NCBI GenBank assembly: GCA_951406725.2
Contig: OX597816.1
Coordinates: 139,128,001 to 139,192,000, forward strand
From: Octopus vulgaris
Lineage: Eukaryota
Reading direction: 5' to 3'
Length of the DNA: 64,000 bases
Both the position numbers and the translations under genes were made by a program. Below the pieces are notes generated by a model. The model saw nothing but the letters and a program-made list of their open reading frames with translations. It was not told the origin of the DNA and did no database searches. This document shows positions 7,111 to 55,149 of this stretch, in pieces. Every line of letters begins with the position of its first letter. The first letter of the stretch is position 1.

Positions 7111-8074
7111 CTCCAAAGGGATCTTGTACCTATTTCTTTACTACTCAAAAGGAGCTAAACACAGAGGGGACAAACAAGGACAGACAAACGGATTAAGTCG
7201 ATTATATCGACCACAAGTGCGTAACTGGTACTTAATTTATCGAACCCGAAAGGATGAAGGGCAAAGTCGACCTCGGCGGAATTTGAACTCAGAACGTAGA
7301 GGCAGACGAAATACCGCTAAGCATTTCGCCCGGCGTGCTAACGTTTCTGCCAGCTCGCCGCCTTCTCCAAAGGGATCTTGTATCTATTTCTTTACTACCC
7401 ACAAGGGGCTAAACACAGAGGGGACAAACAAAGATAGACAAACGCATTAAGTCAATTACATCGACCCCAGTGCGTAATGGTACTTAATTTATCGACCCCG
7501 AAAGGATGAAAGGCAAAGTCGACCTCGGCTGAATTTGAATTCAGAACATAAAGACAAACAAAATACCTATTTCTTTACTGCCCACAAGGGGCTACACACA
7601 GAGGGGACAAACAAGGACAGACAAACGGATTAAGTCGATTATATCGACCACAAGTGCGTAACTGGTACTTAATTTATCGAACCCGAAAGGATGAAAGGCA
7701 AAGTCGACCTCGGCGGAATTTGAACTCAGAACGTAGAGGCAGACGAAATACCGCTAAGCATCTCGCCCGGCGTGCTAACATTTCTGCCAGCTCGCCGCCT
7801 TCTCCAAAGGGATCTTGCACCTATTTCTTTACTACCCACAAGCGGCTAAACACAGAGAGGACAAACAAAGATAGACAAACGGATTAAGTCAATTACATCG
7901 ACCCCAGTGCGTAACTGGTACTTAATTTATCGAACCCGAAAGGATGAAAGGCAAAGTCGACCTCAGCGGAATTTGAACTCAGAACGTAACGGCAGACGAA
8001 ATAGGGCTACGCATTTCGCCCGGCGTGCTAACGTTTCTGTCAGCTCGCCGCCTTCTCCAAAGGGACCTTGTACC
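7111..8074 (-). mobile_element. Head-to-tail array of SINE family C (Nin/Deu-domain-like) units separated by a repeated ~19-bp target sequence
   Basis: CTCCAAAGGGA(T/C)CTTG(T/C)A at 7111, 7365, 7802 and 8055 separates the units 7129-7364, 7383-7801 (dimer) and 7820-8054. The body on the minus strand contains GACTTTGCCTTTCATCCTTTCGGGGTCGATAAA. Confidence 0.9.
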
Positions 8075-16712: not shown

Positions 16713-17380
16713 TCGATTTAAATTTTTGCATAGGGCCAGCAGTTTCGTGGGAGGGGGTACGTCGATTACATCGACCCCAGTTTTCAACTGATACTTACTT
16801 TATCGATCCCGAAATGATAAAAGGTAGAGTCGATCTCGATGGGATTTGAACTCGGAGCGTAGAGACAGAAGAAATGTCGCTAGGCATTTTGCCCGGACTG
16901 GTGACGATTCTTATTTCTTTATTACCCACAAGGGGCTACACAAGAGTGGACAAACAACGACAGACAAACGGATTATATCGACTCCAGTGCGTGACTGGTA
17001 CTTATTTAATCACCCCTGAAAGAATGAAAGCAAAGTCGACCTCGGCGGAATTTGAACTCAGAACGTAGCGGCTGATGAAATACAGCTAAGCATTTCGCCC
17101 GGCGTGCTAACGATTCTGCCAGCTCACCGCGTCAAAGTTACGTTCTATACTGAGCAGTGAAACTAAAGCGGTGAGTTAGCAGAATCCTTCGAGAGTCGAG
17201 CAAAGTGATAAGCGGCATATCTACCAGCGCCTACGTTGACTTCATGTCCTCCACTGAGGTCGATTTTGTATTTTACTATTTCGGTGTTAATAAAATAACT
17301 ATCACTCTAGGACTGCGGCCGATGTAATCTACTTTCCTCTTACCTCAAAATTGCTGCCCTTGCGCCGAAATGTGAAGCAT
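16713..17380. mobile_element. Cluster of three SINE C copies (about 16713-16910 minus, 16911-17132 minus, 17165-17380 plus)
   Basis: Each carries the GTCGAC/GAATTTGAACTC core; tails 3, 1 and 3 respectively. Confidence 0.75.
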
Positions 17381-28433: not shown

Positions 28434-29337
28434 TGTAATTATTATTATTAATAGTATTTTTGTTGTTATCATTCTTCATAATCATTAATGACATCTTGCC
28501 TAGCGAGAAATGCACTGCATATGCGAGCGGCAAAATTTATTACACACTCGCTGTCCTTCCTGCTCACACACGATGATAATGATGATGACGATGATCGCGA
28601 TAACGGACGGCAGTGGCGTTGATGATGACTGACGTTGATGATTATGACGACGATGACGGCGAAGACGAAATTGGTGGTGGTGGTGGTGGTGGTGGTTATG
28701 GCGGTGGTGCTGGTGCTGGTGATGGTGGTGGTGTATGTTGTGATGATATATGATGGTGATGACGGGTGGTGATGAGAGGAAGTAGGCAGAAACATGGGTA
28801 CATGAACAGCAAACAACACAACGCACACTGCATTTAAATACACACACACACGCGCACACATAGCGTCCCAAATGCACAGATACACATGCGTTTATGTACA
28901 AACACACACACATGCCTACAGACATACATACGCACGCACACACACACACACACACAGACACACACACATATATATATATATAAGCCCTTTCGTACATTGG
29001 TGCTAAAGTGCTTGGGTGAAATTGCACCCTGCACATTGGTCAGTTATCACACTTACCCATGTCAGTTTGGGACATAGTAATTAGTGTACCTTTCACCTTT
29101 GGCTCCATGCTGTCATATTCAGTGGTCTATACATATACCTTAATTTATTTGTGGGAAAATCTCCTTCGACTGTGAATATATTTTTGCTCATACGTAGTGT
29201 TCATGAAGTTAATACGGTCTTTCACATATATAGTTGTTTTTGTTTTGTTTTGTTTTTTTTTTGCAAATATATACCAGTCTTTGGTTTCATAGATGCAGTT
29301 TATAAATAAACACAAACGCCTGGCTCGATAGTTATAT

Positions 29338-29683
29338 CGATTTCAAATTTTGGCACAGTTTCGGGAAAGGGGCTAGGTCAATATTATCAACCCCAGTAAT
29401 CAAATTCCACAACGACGGTGGAATTTGAACTCAGAATGTAAAGACGGATGAAATGTAGCTTAACGATCCTGCCAGTTTGACTCGATAATTATATTCTTTT
29501 CTACTCTAGGCACAAGGCTCGAAATTTTGGGGGAGAGGGCCAGTCGATTGGATCGACCCCAGTACGGAACTGGTACTTAATTTATCGACCCCGAAAAGAT
29601 GAAACTCGACCTCGGCGGAATTTCAACTCAGAACATAAAGACAGGCGAAATACCGCAAAGCATTTCTGCCAGCTCGCCGTCTT
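29338..29683 (-). mobile_element. Two tandem SINE C copies of different tail types sharing a triplicated TSD
   Basis: TG(G/A)CTCGATA(G/A/T)TTATAT at 29321, 29478 and 29687. Confidence 0.85.
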
Positions 29684-30562
29684 ACTTGGCTCGATATTTA
29701 TATTAACAATACATCTAGATGACATCTCTTAATAACATATCATCTACTAAAATATATTAATTTTCTATACTAATGCATGATATTGTACTTTTAATTCGTG
29801 ATTCTCACATCCCTGCCTCTGTAGCAATCGTGAAAAGTATGCATTGTAAATATGAGTTAATATGATGAAACCATGCTTGGAATTGTCTTCCGTACATGCT
29901 GGGATAATTGAAATATTATTACTCTATGGAAAAAATAGTTTTCTTTTTCCCACTCCGCATAATTATTTGTAATTTGCTTTTCAATGTTTCTAACATTAAA
30001 TGTATTAACATGCGGATGGCGTCTATGTCTAATTTATCTAACTTTTAAATAATTGCATCTTTAATATGTTTAGAAACTTGTAATTACAAAATTACTAAAT
30101 TATGAATGCGTCTAATTATGAAAATGTCTGTGAATATTTGTTGAATAAAATTAATCCAAAAATAAATCTACATTTGCAATAATTCTGCTCTCATTATGTA
30201 ACATAATCAGAAGAAATATTTCAGACTATATTAACCTAGAAGTCATCCAATGAATCTAAACAGTAAATTCTTCTCTACAATGGGAAACATTTGAATATAG
30301 TTTGCATTACGCATTCTGTAACCATACTACTTGTTATATTCCAATGAGCGCCAGCGAACAGGGATGGAGTCGGCTTTAAGTTCTTCTGAGTCTCCAAGAA
30401 ATAGCAACCAAATGTCCATCAAGTTACATACCAAAATCTTTAAAAGAAGAAAACTTTCGATAATATGTACGAAATAAAAAAGACTCTATGGTCAAGTTTA
30501 GAACAGCAGTAATCCTATATCTACTTCACCAGAGTTTACCTGTGGTTAAACAATTCTAGTTA

Positions 30563-30760: not shown

Positions 30761-31047
30761 TACTAATATTAGTTATCACAGCTACTAATATTACTATACT
30801 ACTATAGCTGTTACTATAACTGTTGTCATAGCCAAAAACGAGGAAAAAAGTCTGTGAAAGTATGTTACTATATACTTAATTTCTCAGATCTCTCTATAGC
30901 TCATAGTTTCTCCAAGCAACTGATTTCAATATTTGTAACACCCAATATATAACATTTTGAAGAGAAATACCTGAACAGTATTGATTATTCACCAAATCAC
31001 TTGCAAAGGAATCAAAGTTTAGAAATTGTGCAATATTCTGATAAGTA

Positions 31048-31448
31048 AGGCGGCGAGCTGGCAGAAACGTTAGCACGCCGGGCGAAATGCTTAGCGGTAT
31101 TTCGTCTGCCGTTACGTTCTGAGTTCAAATTCCGCCGAGGTCGACTTTGCCTTTCATCCTTTCGGGGTCGATAAATTAAGTACCAGTTATGCACTGAGGT
31201 CGATATAATCGACTTAATCCGTTTGCCTGTCCTAGTTTGTCCCCTCTGTGTGTAGCCCCTTGTGGGCAGTAAAGAAATAAGTATGTTGTCTGTCTTTATG
31301 TTCTGAATTCAAATTCCGCCGAGGTCGACTTTGCCTTTCATCCTTTCAGGGTCTATAAATTAATTACCAGTTGCGTACTGGGGTCGATCTAATTGACTGG
31401 CTCCTTCCCAAAAATTTCGGGTCTTGTACCTAGAATAGAAAAGAATAT
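31048..31448 (+). mobile_element. Dimeric SINE C (full monomer with tail 1, then truncated monomer with tail 2) with 12-bp TSD
   Basis: TSD TTCTGATAAGTA at 31036-31047 and 31449-31460 flanks the whole dimer. Confidence 0.9.
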
Positions 31449-37891: not shown

Positions 37892-37936
37892 CACTAGAGT
37901 CATAAAGTCGCTTACTTCAGTTCAAAATGTAATATT

Positions 37937-38533
37937 AATTTAAAATTTTGGCATAAGCCAGCTATTTCGGGGTTAAGTCGATTATATTTCGTGAATAAGT
38001 CGATTTCATCCAGCCTCTGGGCTGAACATGTGTCTGTTTTATCAACGCCAAAAAGGATCAAAGGCAAAGTCGACCTCAACAGTATTTGAACTCAGAAAGT
38101 AACACAGGACGAAATGTTGTTAAGTATTTTATCCGGCGTGGTAATGTTTCAGCTGGTTCGCACCTTAGTTAAAAAGTGTAAAGTTGGTTTTAAATTTTGG
38201 CACAACACCAGCAAAACCGTGGAAATGTAGTCGATGTAACTGACTACAGCGCCTGAGTGGTATTTATTTTATCGATCCCGAAAGGATGAAAGGCAATATC
38301 GACCTCGGCAGAACTCGGAATATAAAGACGGACGAAATGCCGCTAGGCATTTTCCCCAACGTACTAATGATTCTGCCAGCTCATGGTCTTAGTCTAAAAT
38401 ATAATATTTGTTTCAAAGTTTGGTACAAGGGATAAGGGTAAGACTTAAGTCGGTTACATTGACCACAGTGATCACGTGGTCGTTATTTTATCGAATCTGA
38501 ATAGATAAAAAGCAAAGTCGACCTCGACGGAAT
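37937..38533 (-). mobile_element. Array of three diverged SINE C copies separated by a four-fold repeated ~19-bp target
   Basis: (T/C)AGT.(C/T/A)AAAATGTAATATT variants at 37918, 38166, 38390 and 38534. Confidence 0.8.
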
Positions 38534-38852
38534 TAGTCCAAAATGTAATATTACTAAGAGAATGAAGACTGTAAAATCGGTTTACCAATTACAGATGACC
38601 AAATTTCATGGCATTTTGATCGACTGTGACTCATTTAAATTTGGCGTTCTGCAGAGCCTTCTTCCAGATTAAATTTTAAAAGCTTGCAATGGCACCATTT
38701 GATAATAGTTATATACATCCTATGTATTTTGCAGTTTATGTATATAATACATATTTGTTTCTGTTGATTATCCCCATCCTCAACATAACTCTGATCGGGT
38801 TAATGTATGATCAAAGAAGTTCCAACCTTGTCTAAATACAGAGGCTTACTAT

Positions 38853-45032: not shown

Positions 45033-45716
45033 AAGATCTTTACCTTTTGACCTACATACAGATTTAAAAAATGACTTTTTGTAACTAAACACTTTCAAAC
45101 TTTGGACACTGGTAGAATGTGTCATATAAAACATCTTTTACTCTTTGCATTTTTGAGAAAAACTTATATTTACGAAGTTATTTCACGTTTAAGTTCTCGT
45201 ATTTCGGTAATTTCAACCAATCAATGACGTGTGTTCAGCTGAATAAAATTACTGCCATTATTTGTCTACAGCAACTATCGGTGATGTATTTTTCGTTTTT
45301 AACTGTTATTTATGACATCGTTCGTCCGTTTGTACTGGTTTTAAGGCTTTAGGGTTAGGGTGTTAGGGTTTAAGGGTTTAGGGTTAGGATTAGGGTTTTA
45401 GGGTTAGGGTTAAGGTTTTAGGGTTAGGTTTAGGGTTGTAATAAATAACAGTGACAAACAAAATGTACACCGCCGGAAGTTCTTGTTGACAAACAACAGC
45501 AGTAATTTTATTCAGCTGAATACACGCCATTGATTGATTGAAATTACTGAAATACGAGAACTTTAACGTGAAATAACGTCGTAAATATAAGTTTTTTTTC
45601 AAAACTGCTAAGAGTTAAAGATGTTTTATGACACATTCTACCAGTGTCCGAAGTTTGAAAATATTTAGTTACAAAAAATTATTTTTTAAATATGTATGTC
45701 AAAAGGTAAAGATCCC
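45033..45716. mobile_element. Foldback/MITE with ~280-bp TIRs and a central telomeric (TTAGGG)-like array
   Basis: Arms 45035-45317 / 45437-45714 (GATCTTTACCTTTTGAC ... GTCAAAAGGTAAAGATC); TTAGGG variants at 45349-45436; AAAATT on both flanks. Confidence 0.9.
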
Positions 45717-52410: not shown

Positions 52411-52499
52411 TACAACAACAATGAACACATATAATGCTAAATTATTATACGTGTCGCTACAATTATAAACTCCCTACTCAAATCCAAAATGTAATATTA

Positions 52500-53385
52500 G
52501 TTTCAATTTTTGACACAAGGTCAGCAATTCTAGGGAAGGTGTAAGCCGATTACATCGATGTCAGTTCTCAGCTGGTGCTTATTTTGTCGATCCGAAAAGG
52601 ATGAAAGACAAAGTCGAGCACGGTGGAATTTGAATTCAGAGCATAAACACAGGTGAAATGCCGATAAGCATTTTGCCTGGTTTACTAACGATTCTGCCAG
52701 TTTACCGCCCTTCAAAATCATAATAATCCTTTCTACTAAAGGTACAAGTTCTGAAATTTAGGAGAGGAGGATAGTAGATTACATCGACACTAGTGCTCAA
52801 CTGGTACTTATTTTATCGACCCCAAGAGGATGAAAGGCAAATTTGACCTCTGCGGTATTTTAACTCAGAACGTCAAGACGGATGAAATGCTGCTGAGTAT
52901 TTTGCCTGGTATACTAACGATTCTGCCAGCTCAACGCCTTCATGATCACAAAAAACAATAGTTTCAATTTGTAGTAGAAAGCCAGCAATTTTTAGAAGAA
53001 AGGGTTTTGTCGATAACGCCGTTCTCATACTTGAATGGTACTTTATTTTATTCCGTATCATAAAAGATGAAAAGGCAAAACAAATTCCGGCAGAATTTGA
53101 ACTTAGAACATAAAGAGCCAGATTATTGCATTGTTCTCGATCCAAATGATTCTGCCAATTCACGTCCTTAACAGTTTCTTTCTAAATAAAGTAACTAGAG
53201 CGGTAACCTGTAGAATCGTTAACGCACCGGACAAAAGGCAGAGCGGCATATCTTTCAACTTTACGTCCTGAGTTGAAATACCAGCAAGGTTGACTTTGCC
53301 TTTCATCCTTTCGGGGTCATTAAAATAAGGAACCAGTGGAGCACTGGGATTGATAAAATAAGTCCCAGTTGAACACTGGGGGCGA
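52500..53385. mobile_element. Three head-to-tail SINE C copies (minus, tails 3/2/3) plus one plus-strand copy at about 53195-53385
   Basis: Repeated cores; spacer TCCAAAATGTAATATT (52483) / TTCAAAATCATAATAAT (52711). Confidence 0.75.
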
Positions 53386-54444
53386 CAACGAAATAACCCT
53401 GTATTTTTAGGATCATTTTGACTATTAAATCTATACTGACCCTTCTTGAATCGCATGTCATTTCTCGATACCCGATTTACAACCTGCCAATGTTGCACAA
53501 AAGTGCAGGAAAAATAAATTAAGAAGAAACCTCTAACCTCCATTTGTAAGAAGTCCGAATGATATGAGGAAGAAATAAATAATCATTAAGTGTTTGAAAA
53601 CGAAGTCAATATTTTGTCATTCAAACTTAGGAGTTTGCCAGAAGAATAAGCTCCAGCAGTAGCAACACCAACAACAATTATTATTATTGTTTCTTTTTAA
53701 GCACAAGGCCTACAATTATGAGGGCAGAGTGTCTGTCAATCTCTTCGACACCAGTACATAATTTAAATTCTTCACTTTCGACTCTGGAGGAAAGGCGAAA
53801 TTGGAACTCAGCATGTAACGAGCCGGAACAAATGCTGCAAAGCATATTATCTAAAAAGCTAACGGTAGTTGAAAAAAAAAAAGAACCAAAAAAAAAAAAG
53901 AAAAGAAAATGATCGTATATTTATATGGGAAATAAACAACTGTTGAATTTAAGATATATGTAAACAAAAGAAAGTCTTTTGATTAGCTCGAAGCGTTTAA
54001 ACTGTATTATATGAGACTATACATCGTTTAACTCTTCGGCATTTTGAAATATTTCAACAAACATTTTGATTTATGGCGATAAAAAGATGTTAGCTAAGAA
54101 CGAAACCCCCTACAGAACAATATATTCAACTTTTCAGAAATTGAAAGATTACGATCATTGCAACATAAAAGCGGCCCGATGATAAGTAGTTATATTTATG
54201 TACTGTAAATTTTCATTCGGTTTTCTGAACGGATAATATTTATTGGTTTCTAAATTTATGGTAATATCTAAAACATTTACAAAATGTAAGTTCGTATTGA
54301 CAGCAATTTTTAGGTCTAAAGGTCTTTAACTTTATGAAGGTTTTTTGTTTTGTTTTCTTTCTTTTTTTTCTGAAACTGTCTAACTGCTGAGCATCCATAT
54401 TACTCGTAAATGACAATTACATCGTCTCAATGTTAAACACATTG

Positions 54445-54884
54445 AAGGCAGTGAGCTGGAAGAATCGTTAGCACGCCGGGCAAAATACTTAGCGGCATTT
54501 CGTCCGTCCTCACGTTCTGAGTTCAAATTCCACCGAGGTTGACTTTACCTGTCGTCCCTTTCAGGTCGAAAAATAAGTACCAGTTGACCACTAGGATCGA
54601 TGTAATCGACTTGGCCGCTTCCGGTAAATTTCTGGCCTTGTGCCAAAATTTGAAATCAATATTAAACAGTGAAGGCGACGAGCTAACAGAATCGTTACCA
54701 CGCCAGTCAAAATGCTTAGCGCCATTTTCTTCCGACTTTACTTCCTGATTTCAAATGTCTCCGGAGTCGACTTTGCCTTTCAACTTTTTGCAGTCAATAA
54801 AGTAAGTACCAGTTGAGCACTGGGGTCAACGTCATCCACTTCCTCACGCCCCGACATTGCTGGCTTTGTGCCACAATTTGAAGC
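54445..54884 (+). mobile_element. Two tandem SINE C copies with a triplicated target
   Basis: CAAT(G/A)TTAAA(T)(A)CA(C)..TG at 54428, 54657 and 54885. Confidence 0.8.
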
Positions 54885-55149
54885 CAATATTAAATACACT
54901 GCAAATTATTGAATAAATGTAAAATATAATCACATAAAAGGTAAGAAATTTCACCAAATTCTAAATTACTCATAATGAAAGGAAGAAGTCAATTTTATTT
55001 GCCCACACATTATCGAAAGAAAGTAATGTTCTTCGTTACTTTTAATATCGGAGTTACTCTTTGAAATATAGTTCCTGGTTAGAATAATGCTTTCTGGGGA
55101 AAATAGCTACTGAAGAGTATTTTCCTTCCTCCTCTTTCTTCTTTTGGAA

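What the first reader, a model, noticed from the sequence alone, without database searches (positions are those of the whole stretch)
29321..29703. Two different SINE C subfamilies inserted successively into the same 17-bp target
Seen: TGGCTCGATANTTATAT occurs three times around an old, deleted tail-3 copy and a younger tail-2 copy. Different tails and ages argue against simple tandem duplication. The pattern recurs at 7111, 37918, 52483 and 54428, giving five loci in 64 kb, always head-to-tail. Inference: new copies are targeted immediately next to an existing copy and re-duplicate the old TSD, much like repeat duplication in CRISPR adaptation. Targeting could be through Pol III factors, as established for Ty3 and Dictyostelium TRE elements. 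Such arrays would record insertion order.
Basis: partly seen in the sequence, partly recalled or inferred. Interest (0 to 1): 0.72.

Follow-up and report, generated by a model that had tools for sequence, protein, structure and literature searches.

The report
SINE copies stack at relatives' heads
Two different versions of a very common short jumping repeat sit head-to-tail between three copies of one 18-base target, and across this genome younger copies land on the head side of older relatives far more often than chance, likely because the new copy's matching front end pairs with the resident copy to finish the insertion, not because RNA polymerase III factors guide it.

Summary
Real at this locus. 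Three 18-bp target copies flank an old T3-tail SINE (15% diverged) and a younger T2-tail SINE (6%) on its head side. In 1.6 Mb of random stretches 18 of 229 heads have a same-direction tail 7-25 bp upstream (0.34 expected). Genome-wide about 178 exact-motif T2-then-T3 junctions stand against 5-7 from target-motif preference; all 9 testable ones repeat the spacer; the head side is favoured about 10-40-fold; neighbours are not closest relatives (0 of 55). Pol III targeting is not supported: 0 of 118 heads of another tRNA-headed SINE have such a neighbour, against 38 of 250 own-family heads. Best reading: target-primed reverse transcription at a tail-matched nick, finished by pairing with the resident head (inferred). 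Target-site triplication is known (Alu, snoRNA retrocopies, clam SINEs); the family-specific, one-sided excess was not found in my searches. Earlier scan notes on other pieces of this genome had already reached the head-replacement reading for nested copies. New variant of a known kind.

The parts
29321..29338 (-). Target copy on the tail side of the old element (3' duplication of the first insertion)
29339..29477 (-). Old SINE copy, T3 tail, 14.7% diverged, first model bases missing, four internal deletions
29478..29495 (-). Middle target copy (spacer): head-side duplication of the old copy and tail-side duplication of the young copy; begins with the AATAT word that T2 and T3 insertions prefer
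29496..29683 (-). Younger SINE copy, T2 tail, 6.3% diverged, 20-nt deletion in the head and 6-nt deletion in the body
29684..29686 (-). Three extra bases between the outer target copy and the young head (extra bases are common at 5' joints of solo copies)
29687..29704 (-). Target copy on the head side of the young element
54428..54902 (+). Second locus of the same kind: two T3 copies (9% then 16% diverged) with three decayed target copies
7111..8073 (-). Four T1 pieces with four 19-bp target copies and one seamless joint; partly duplication or conversion
37918..38557 (-). Three old T3 copies head-to-tail, target sharing weak
52483..53168 (-). T3, T2b, T3 head-to-tail, shared target not confirmed
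31047..31443 (+). Seamless nest: T1 tail joined to model position 50 of a T2 copy, one outer duplication
16718..17131 (-). Seamless nest: T1 tail joined to model position 17 of an old T3 copy

Best explanation
A younger T2 SINE copy sits on the head side of an older T3 copy with the target present three times, likely because it was reverse-transcribed at the same tail-matched nick and its new DNA end then likely paired with the old copy's matching head and recopied the spacer. Steps: (1) T3 inserts first and duplicates an 18-bp target (structure shown, order inferred from divergence and genome-wide polarity). (2) A LINE enzyme nicks at the AATAT that begins the head-side target copy, where the T2 RNA tail can prime (motif shown, enzyme not identified). 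(3) The cDNA end, complementary to the SINE head, anneals to the resident head about 16-18 bases on and is extended back across the spacer, so the duplication ends exactly at the old head (inferred). (4) Events primed on the tail side would find the homologous copy upstream and replace it without leaving a second copy, which would explain the one-sidedness (inferred, untested). The same pairing gives the seamless nests when the nick lies inside the old head.
For: Excess: 18 of 229 heads against 0.34 expected; 438 exact T2-tail/spacer/head matches, 0 control; about 178 of these lead into T3 (11 of 27 classified loci) against 5-7 from a target-motif model. In situ and sequential: 9 of 9 testable T2-then-T3 junctions repeat the spacer upstream; the spacer is closer to the head-side flank than to the tail-side flank (0.90 against 0.73, n 8, p 0.016). 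Polarity about 10-40 to 1 from reciprocal searches, although the motif model rates the tail-side site at least as well. Family-specific: 38 of 250 against 0 of 118; genome-wide 438 against 20, of which 4 of 8 inspected were true heads of the other family. Duplication ends exactly at the old head in 24 of 31; about 13% would match by independent draws from the solo length spread (my arithmetic). One 38-bp spacer, twice a normal duplication, is copied whole (L006). Homology-guided joints are shown by nests: 67 seamless against 2 with the head fragment kept, 23,793 against 47 exact matches genome-wide, while an unrelated long element at the same site keeps head bases 1-65 in 9 of 10 loci. T3 hosts of T1 nests are as old as solo T3 and unrelated to each other; the T1 part is less diverged in 14 of 14. 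Precedent: R2 'anneal' junctions are seamless (PMC11331408, passages).
Against: No clear trace of copying from the neighbour's head: T2-then-T3 pairs share 3 of 40 private changes in bases 1-49 (control 4%); T3-T3 pairs 9 of 57 (control 6.5%), no excess further on. Head-side units lack a head as often as solo units (10 of 33 against 13 of 45; 11 of 31 against 27 of 76); truncated copies with their own duplication are rarer on the head side (1 of 21 against 10 of 58) but not significantly. 7 of 31 duplications do not end at the old head, and that set was chosen for ungapped likeness. Long spacers are usually not copied (L177 54 bp, L019, L132); only one is. [quoted passage not shown] The motif model rests on 22 sites and 15 intact tails. 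The seamless counts include tandem expansions and re-mobilised dimers. At this locus the three target copies differ 2, 2, 3, which does not by itself give the order, the young head has 3 extra bases, and no relative lacking the T2 copy was found.
Confidence: 0.6

Rival explanations
1. Plain re-use of the endonuclease site: the head-side target keeps its upstream context, is cut again, and the new copy is joined in the ordinary way with a second nick that happens to fall at the old boundary.
For: T2 and T3 share the AATAT target word. The same logic was proposed for Alu (reported in PMC3783187 section 27) and for snoRNA/ID triplications (PMC1687206, passages). Some truncated head-side copies look conventionally joined (L198, L200, L209, weak). 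T2 does land before heads of the unrelated family at a low rate. Heads of that family carry a different old target, so the cross-family test does not separate this reading from mine.
Against: Motif models predict 5-7 junctions against about 178, upstream context carries almost no information, and the tail-side site scores as well yet is 10-40-fold rarer. Exact ends in 24 of 31. It does not explain seamless nests or the 38-bp copy.
Confidence: 0.22
2. Pol III factors bound to the resident SINE tether the insertion machinery, as recalled for Ty3 and Dictyostelium TRE elements.
For: Insertions sit right at the transcription start of a tRNA-like head and are orientation-biased; TRE5 is orientation-specific (recalled, no call).
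Against: 0 of 118 heads of another tRNA-headed SINE have a neighbour, and 0 of 250 own heads are preceded by that family's tail; 0 of 30 tRNA loci (weak, about 13 are retro-chimeras); site choice follows the tail word; most stacking is inside the head at tail-matched words.
Confidence: 0.05
3. Tandem duplication or unequal crossing-over between target copies, later diversified.
For: Real elsewhere: 7111 array, L130; proposed for clam arrays (PMC11481361, passages).
Against: The two copies here have different tails, divergence and deletions; the neighbour is the closest relative in 0 of 55 pairs; the process is symmetric and gives no age polarity.
Confidence: 0.05
4. One event: a ready-made dimer was pasted in, or the enzyme primed twice or jumped templates at one nick.
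For: Dimers with a foreign spacer inside one outer duplication are common among T2-T2 and T1-T1 pairs; template jumps occur in this genome (tRNA plus T1 inside one 15-bp duplication, L235).
Against: Here the spacer matches both flanks; the two copies differ in age; for T2-then-T3 pairs the tail-side target copy is the more decayed.
Confidence: 0.08

Closest known systems
[quoted passage not shown] 2015, Gene 561:283; title and its citation in PMC11481361 seen only, paper not held) and tandem Alu insertions (El-Sawy and Deininger 2005, as reported in PMC3783187 section 27)
   Same: Two SINE copies head-to-tail with a shared target; re-use of the head-side site.
   Different: For Alu, head and tail sides were hit about equally in 27 cases and no enrichment remained after correcting for nick-site preference (PMC3783187); here about 30-fold over the motif model, 10-40-fold head-sided and family-specific.
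snoRNA retrocopy / ID / Alu triplications (PMC1687206, passages)
   Same: Different elements inserted one after the other at one site, target present three times, read as consecutive events.
   Different: A few cases between unrelated elements; no homology between partners, no polarity statistics in the passages seen.
TSD1-(SINE-TSD1)n and TSD1-(SINE)n-TSD1 arrays of the blood clam (PMC11481361, abstract and passages)
   Same: Same two array layouts in a mollusc tRNA SINE.
   Different: Clam units are highly similar and ascribed to unequal recombination; here units are often different subfamilies of different age.
Head-to-tail multimers of rodent and bat SINEs Dip, B2, Ves (PMC8466645, passages)
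   Same: A large share of copies in head-to-tail multimers, mixed families.
   Different: Multimers were set aside unanalysed; insertion into the A-tail was the suggested route; these elements have no A-tail.
R2 'anneal' 5' junctions (PMC11331408, passages)
   Same: cDNA end pairs with homologous target DNA and gives a seamless joint.
   Different: R2 is site-specific and anneals upstream of the nick; here the partner is a resident relative, upstream (nests) or downstream (spacer copied; inferred).
Ty3 and Dictyostelium TRE targeting of Pol III genes (recalled, no call)
   Same: Insertion at the start of a Pol III-type unit.
   Different: Other tRNA-headed units are not hit.

Membership tests
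tRNA-derived SINE | Short, high-copy, non-coding interspersed repeat | tested here: met
   212-234 bp, 432 pieces in 1.66 Mb
tRNA-derived SINE | Variable-length target duplications | tested here: met
   10-20 bp in 31 non-repetitive solo cases of 99 examined; shuffled null 2 of 99
tRNA-derived SINE | tRNA-related head with A and B boxes | tested here: inconclusive
   Box-like words seen by eye in the consensus (box patterns recalled); ARAGORN and Rfam found no tRNA match
tRNA-derived SINE | 3' tail shared with a partner LINE | tested here: inconclusive
   No LINE carrying the T2 or T3 tail in 1.98 Mb; a Tx1 partner for T1 is claimed in earlier notes, not checked here
Known octopus SINEs OR1, OR2, OK | Sequence identity to the published consensus | not testable with these tools
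   No repeat library held; names recalled, OR2 mentioned in PMC4758252; one search gave no sequence
Target-site triplication | Three copies of one target around two elements | tested here: met
Target-site triplication | Consecutive events, not one composite | tested here: met
   Different tails and ages here; 9 of 9 T2-then-T3 junctions native, tail-side copy more decayed
Pol III-tethered retroelements (Ty3, TRE) | Insertion next to Pol III units regardless of their sequence | tested here: not met
   0 of 118 heads of the other SINE; 0 of 30 tRNA loci (weak)
Pol III-tethered retroelements (Ty3, TRE) | Contact between integration protein and TFIIIB or TFIIIC | not testable with these tools
   Partner enzyme for T2 and T3 not identified
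Tandem duplication array | Neighbours are each other's closest relatives | tested here: not met
   0 of 55 pairs; met for two pieces of the 7111 array
CRISPR-like ordered array | All units added in place at one end | tested here: not met
   Polarity real for mixed pairs, but 7 of 9 T2-T2 junctions are not native and nests overwrite heads

The most novel reading that the evidence does not exclude
This SINE family homes on itself by sequence: pairing of the new copy with a resident relative rescues or directs insertion, adds copies only on the head side, silently replaces copies hit on the tail side, and thereby swaps tails between subfamilies. Thousands of mixed pairs would then be a dated record of second-strand joining, the least understood step of non-LTR retrotransposition.
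Probability: 0.3. Interest if true: 0.7.

Novelty: new variant of a known kind. Interest (0 to 1): 0.46.

Why it matters
How the 5' end of a non-LTR insertion is joined is still poorly understood. An estimated 4,000 T2-then-T3 loci (rough) plus tens of thousands of nests give a natural data set in which homology at the joint can be varied and counted, with an unrelated element at the same site as a control. It would also explain SINE clustering and tail swapping without selection, give a relative clock for subfamilies, and warn that SINE sites here are re-used, which matters for presence/absence markers. It is not a new targeting system of the Pol III type.

Tried and rejected
Pol III tethering: rejected on the cross-family test. 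Tandem duplication for this locus: rejected. A single composite source for T1-in-T3 nests: rejected, hosts are unrelated, best pairwise identity 0.71-0.81. Looking for the neighbour's private changes in the new head gave little. A rule that foreign spacers lack a run of four T was looked at by eye (about 2 of 12 foreign against 6 of 15 native have one) and is not established. Search for a relative lacking the younger copy: organisms B, C, D, E all seem to hold its head junction and repeat noise hid any joint across it; uninformative for order. No partner LINE for the T2 or T3 tail in 1.98 Mb. Rfam and ARAGORN gave nothing on the element. A genome-wide count of long spacers could not be made, so that test rests on the random sample. 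The divergence polarity 17 of 21 was not used as proof because the loci were picked by an intact upstream tail. Lee et al. 2015 could not be read. PMC11699766 and PMC8501958 (passages) held nothing relevant. Supplements were not opened; those of PMC11481361 and PMC8466645 may hold array tables that bear on novelty.

Full report
What is at the locus. The window lies on a 182-Mb contig of a 2.8-Gb animal genome; 'octopus-type' is my recall of the repeats and the wording of earlier notes, not a call. On the minus strand the order is: target copy (29704-29687), three extra bases, a T2-tail SINE (6.3% non-CpG divergence), target copy (29495-29478), a T3-tail SINE (14.7%, four deletions), target copy (29338-29321). 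The three 18-bp copies differ at 2, 2 and 3 positions. Contigs of four other coded organisms carry the head junction.

The family. From the window and 160 evenly spaced 10-kb stretches (1.66 Mb) I built four subfamily models with a shared head and core and different tails; median divergence is 5.6% (T1), 10.3% (T2), 14.8% (T3), 16.4% (T2b). Solo copies have 10-20-bp duplications (31 clear non-repetitive cases among 99 full-length solos) that begin with a word matching the element's own 3' end: GGTAT or AGAAAC for T1, AATAT for T2 and T3. The target carries about 4.5-5.6 bits, nearly all in that word (18-22 sites each). A link between tail sequence and the start of the duplication is reported for RTE-related SINEs (PMC6007223, abstract only); the partner LINE of T2 and T3 was not found.

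Excess and direction. With the window left out, neighbours within 50 bp are 110 same-direction against 17 opposite; beyond 200 bp 67 against 61; 18 of 229 heads have a tail 7-25 bp upstream against 0.34 expected. Exact patterns over the whole genome gave 438 T2-tail, 186 T3-tail and 199 T1-tail junctions, 0 in each reversed control. Of the first 30 T2 loci 27 could be classified: the downstream unit was T3 in 11, T2 in 13, T1 in 3; of the first 30 T3 loci 26 could be classified: T3 in 21, T2b in 1, T2 in 3, T1 in 1, and only one (L219) is a clear young copy on the tail side. Correcting for motif survival gives about 4,000 head-side against 100-400 tail-side loci (small denominators). All 9 T2-then-T3 junctions with an intact upstream head repeat the spacer there, but only 2 of 9 T2-then-T2 junctions do. 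In 8 T2-then-T3 loci the spacer is closer to the head-side flank (0.90) than to the tail-side flank (0.73), p 0.016, as expected if the head-side duplication is the younger. The neighbour was the closest relative in 0 of 55 pairs.

Is target preference enough? A model that places T2 copies by the target matrix alone predicts 16-35 of the 438 junctions and 5-7 of the roughly 178 that lead into T3; it rates the tail-side site at least as well as the head-side one (that figure is inflated by picking intact tails). The model rests on 22 sites and 15 intact tails, so the factor of about 30 is rough. For Alu the same kind of test left no enrichment, and 27 older cases were split evenly between head and tail (PMC3783187, section 27 read whole).

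Is it Pol III tethering? A second abundant tRNA-headed SINE serves as control. 38 of 250 own-family heads have an own-family tail within 40 bp upstream, 0 of 118 heads of the other family do (p 2e-7), 0 of 250 own heads are preceded by the other family's tail, and 5 of 118 of its heads are preceded by its own tail. Genome-wide the cross-family pattern gives 20 matches, 4 of 8 inspected being true heads. None of 30 top tRNA loci had a copy at target distance upstream, but about 13 of them (by eye) are retro-chimeras, so this is weak. Tethering is not supported.

Evidence that homology makes the joint. Most stacking in the sample is not spacer-separated: a tail, nearly always T1, is joined straight to model position 17 or 50 of the next copy, where tail-matched words lie, with no duplicated head (67 against 2; 23,793 against 47 exact matches, both including tandem runs). 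T3 hosts of such nests are as old as solo T3, unrelated to each other, and older than the T1 in front in 14 of 14. An unrelated long element with a zinc-knuckle frame, inserted at the same internal site, keeps head bases 1-65 in front of it in 9 of 10 loci. So a matching 5' end is absorbed and a non-matching one is not, as in R2 'anneal' junctions (PMC11331408, passages). For spacer-type pairs the duplication ends exactly at the old head in 24 of 31 and within one base in 28, and one 38-bp spacer starting at a T1-type word is copied whole.

What speaks against. Head-side copies show little of the neighbour's private changes, lack heads as often as solos (truncated copies with their own duplication 1 of 21 against 10 of 58), several long spacers are not copied, and in R2 assays the joining route did not set efficiency. 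That homology is why the head side is hit so often is therefore inferred. Plain site re-use remains the main rival.

Limits of the 'record' idea. Several arrays have a spacer foreign to the locus inside one outer duplication (L061, L062, L176, L181, L195, L268, L269), and two distant loci share nearly the same spacer (L166, L195), so arrays also move as units. The enzyme jumps templates (L235). L130 is a plain segmental duplication and two pieces of the 7111 array are closest relatives.

What is known. Target-site triplication is named for Alu (Lee et al. 2015; title and citation only) and for snoRNA/ID retrocopies (PMC1687206, passages); both array layouts are described in a clam (PMC11481361, abstract and passages); head-to-tail multimers are common for Dip and B2 (PMC8466645, passages); SINE-derived satellites in reptiles are a different structure (PMC10702118, passages). 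Nine library searches showed no report of this in octopus or of a family-specific head-side excess; the library lacks most subscription papers.

Verdict. A real, ordinary-looking target-site triplication that belongs to an unusually strong, one-sided, family-specific pattern. New variant of a known kind; interest 0.46.

Noticed in passing
L226-L255 (30 top tRNA matches in G000): About 13 of 30 (by eye) are a tRNA plus its T-rich trailer fused directly to a short 3' tail of another repeat (three or four different tails); L235 is tRNA, trailer and a full T1 SINE inside one 15-bp duplication. Likely template-jump chimeras, SINE-like in layout.
   Followed up: partly
L272-L281; L219:200-598: A young long element (93-96% alike, at least 40 copies, zinc-knuckle frame of 517 aa in L281) starts right after head bases 1-65 of the SINE in 9 of 10 loci: site-specific insertion into the SINE.
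   Followed up: partly
window 31047-31443 and 16718-17131; 23,793 exact junctions genome-wide: Seamless nests of the youngest subfamily at model positions 50 and 17 are the commonest form of stacking.
   Followed up: yes
L061, L062, L166, L176, L181, L190, L195, L268, L269: Arrays with a spacer foreign to the locus inside one outer duplication; L166 and L195 share nearly the same spacer. Dimers seem to be re-mobilised as units.
   Followed up: partly
G000:C14:84691056-84691413, C11:19231495-19231651: Tandem runs of a 65-66-bp unit made of SINE head bases 1-65 (6 and 3 junctions), a small SINE-derived satellite.
   Followed up: no
L130:6125 region: Two T1 copies 185 bp apart are a plain tandem segmental duplication including flanks.
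   Followed up: yes
random sample: 17 of 41 solo T1 copies, the youngest subfamily, show no clear target duplication; possibly deletion-type or chimeric insertions.
   Followed up: no
random sample: The second tRNA-headed SINE also self-stacks (5 of 118 heads preceded by its own tail), so the behaviour may not be limited to one family.
   Followed up: no
window 45344-45437: Short array of TTAGGG-like units (14-bp and 20-bp periods), an interstitial telomere-like repeat.
   Followed up: no
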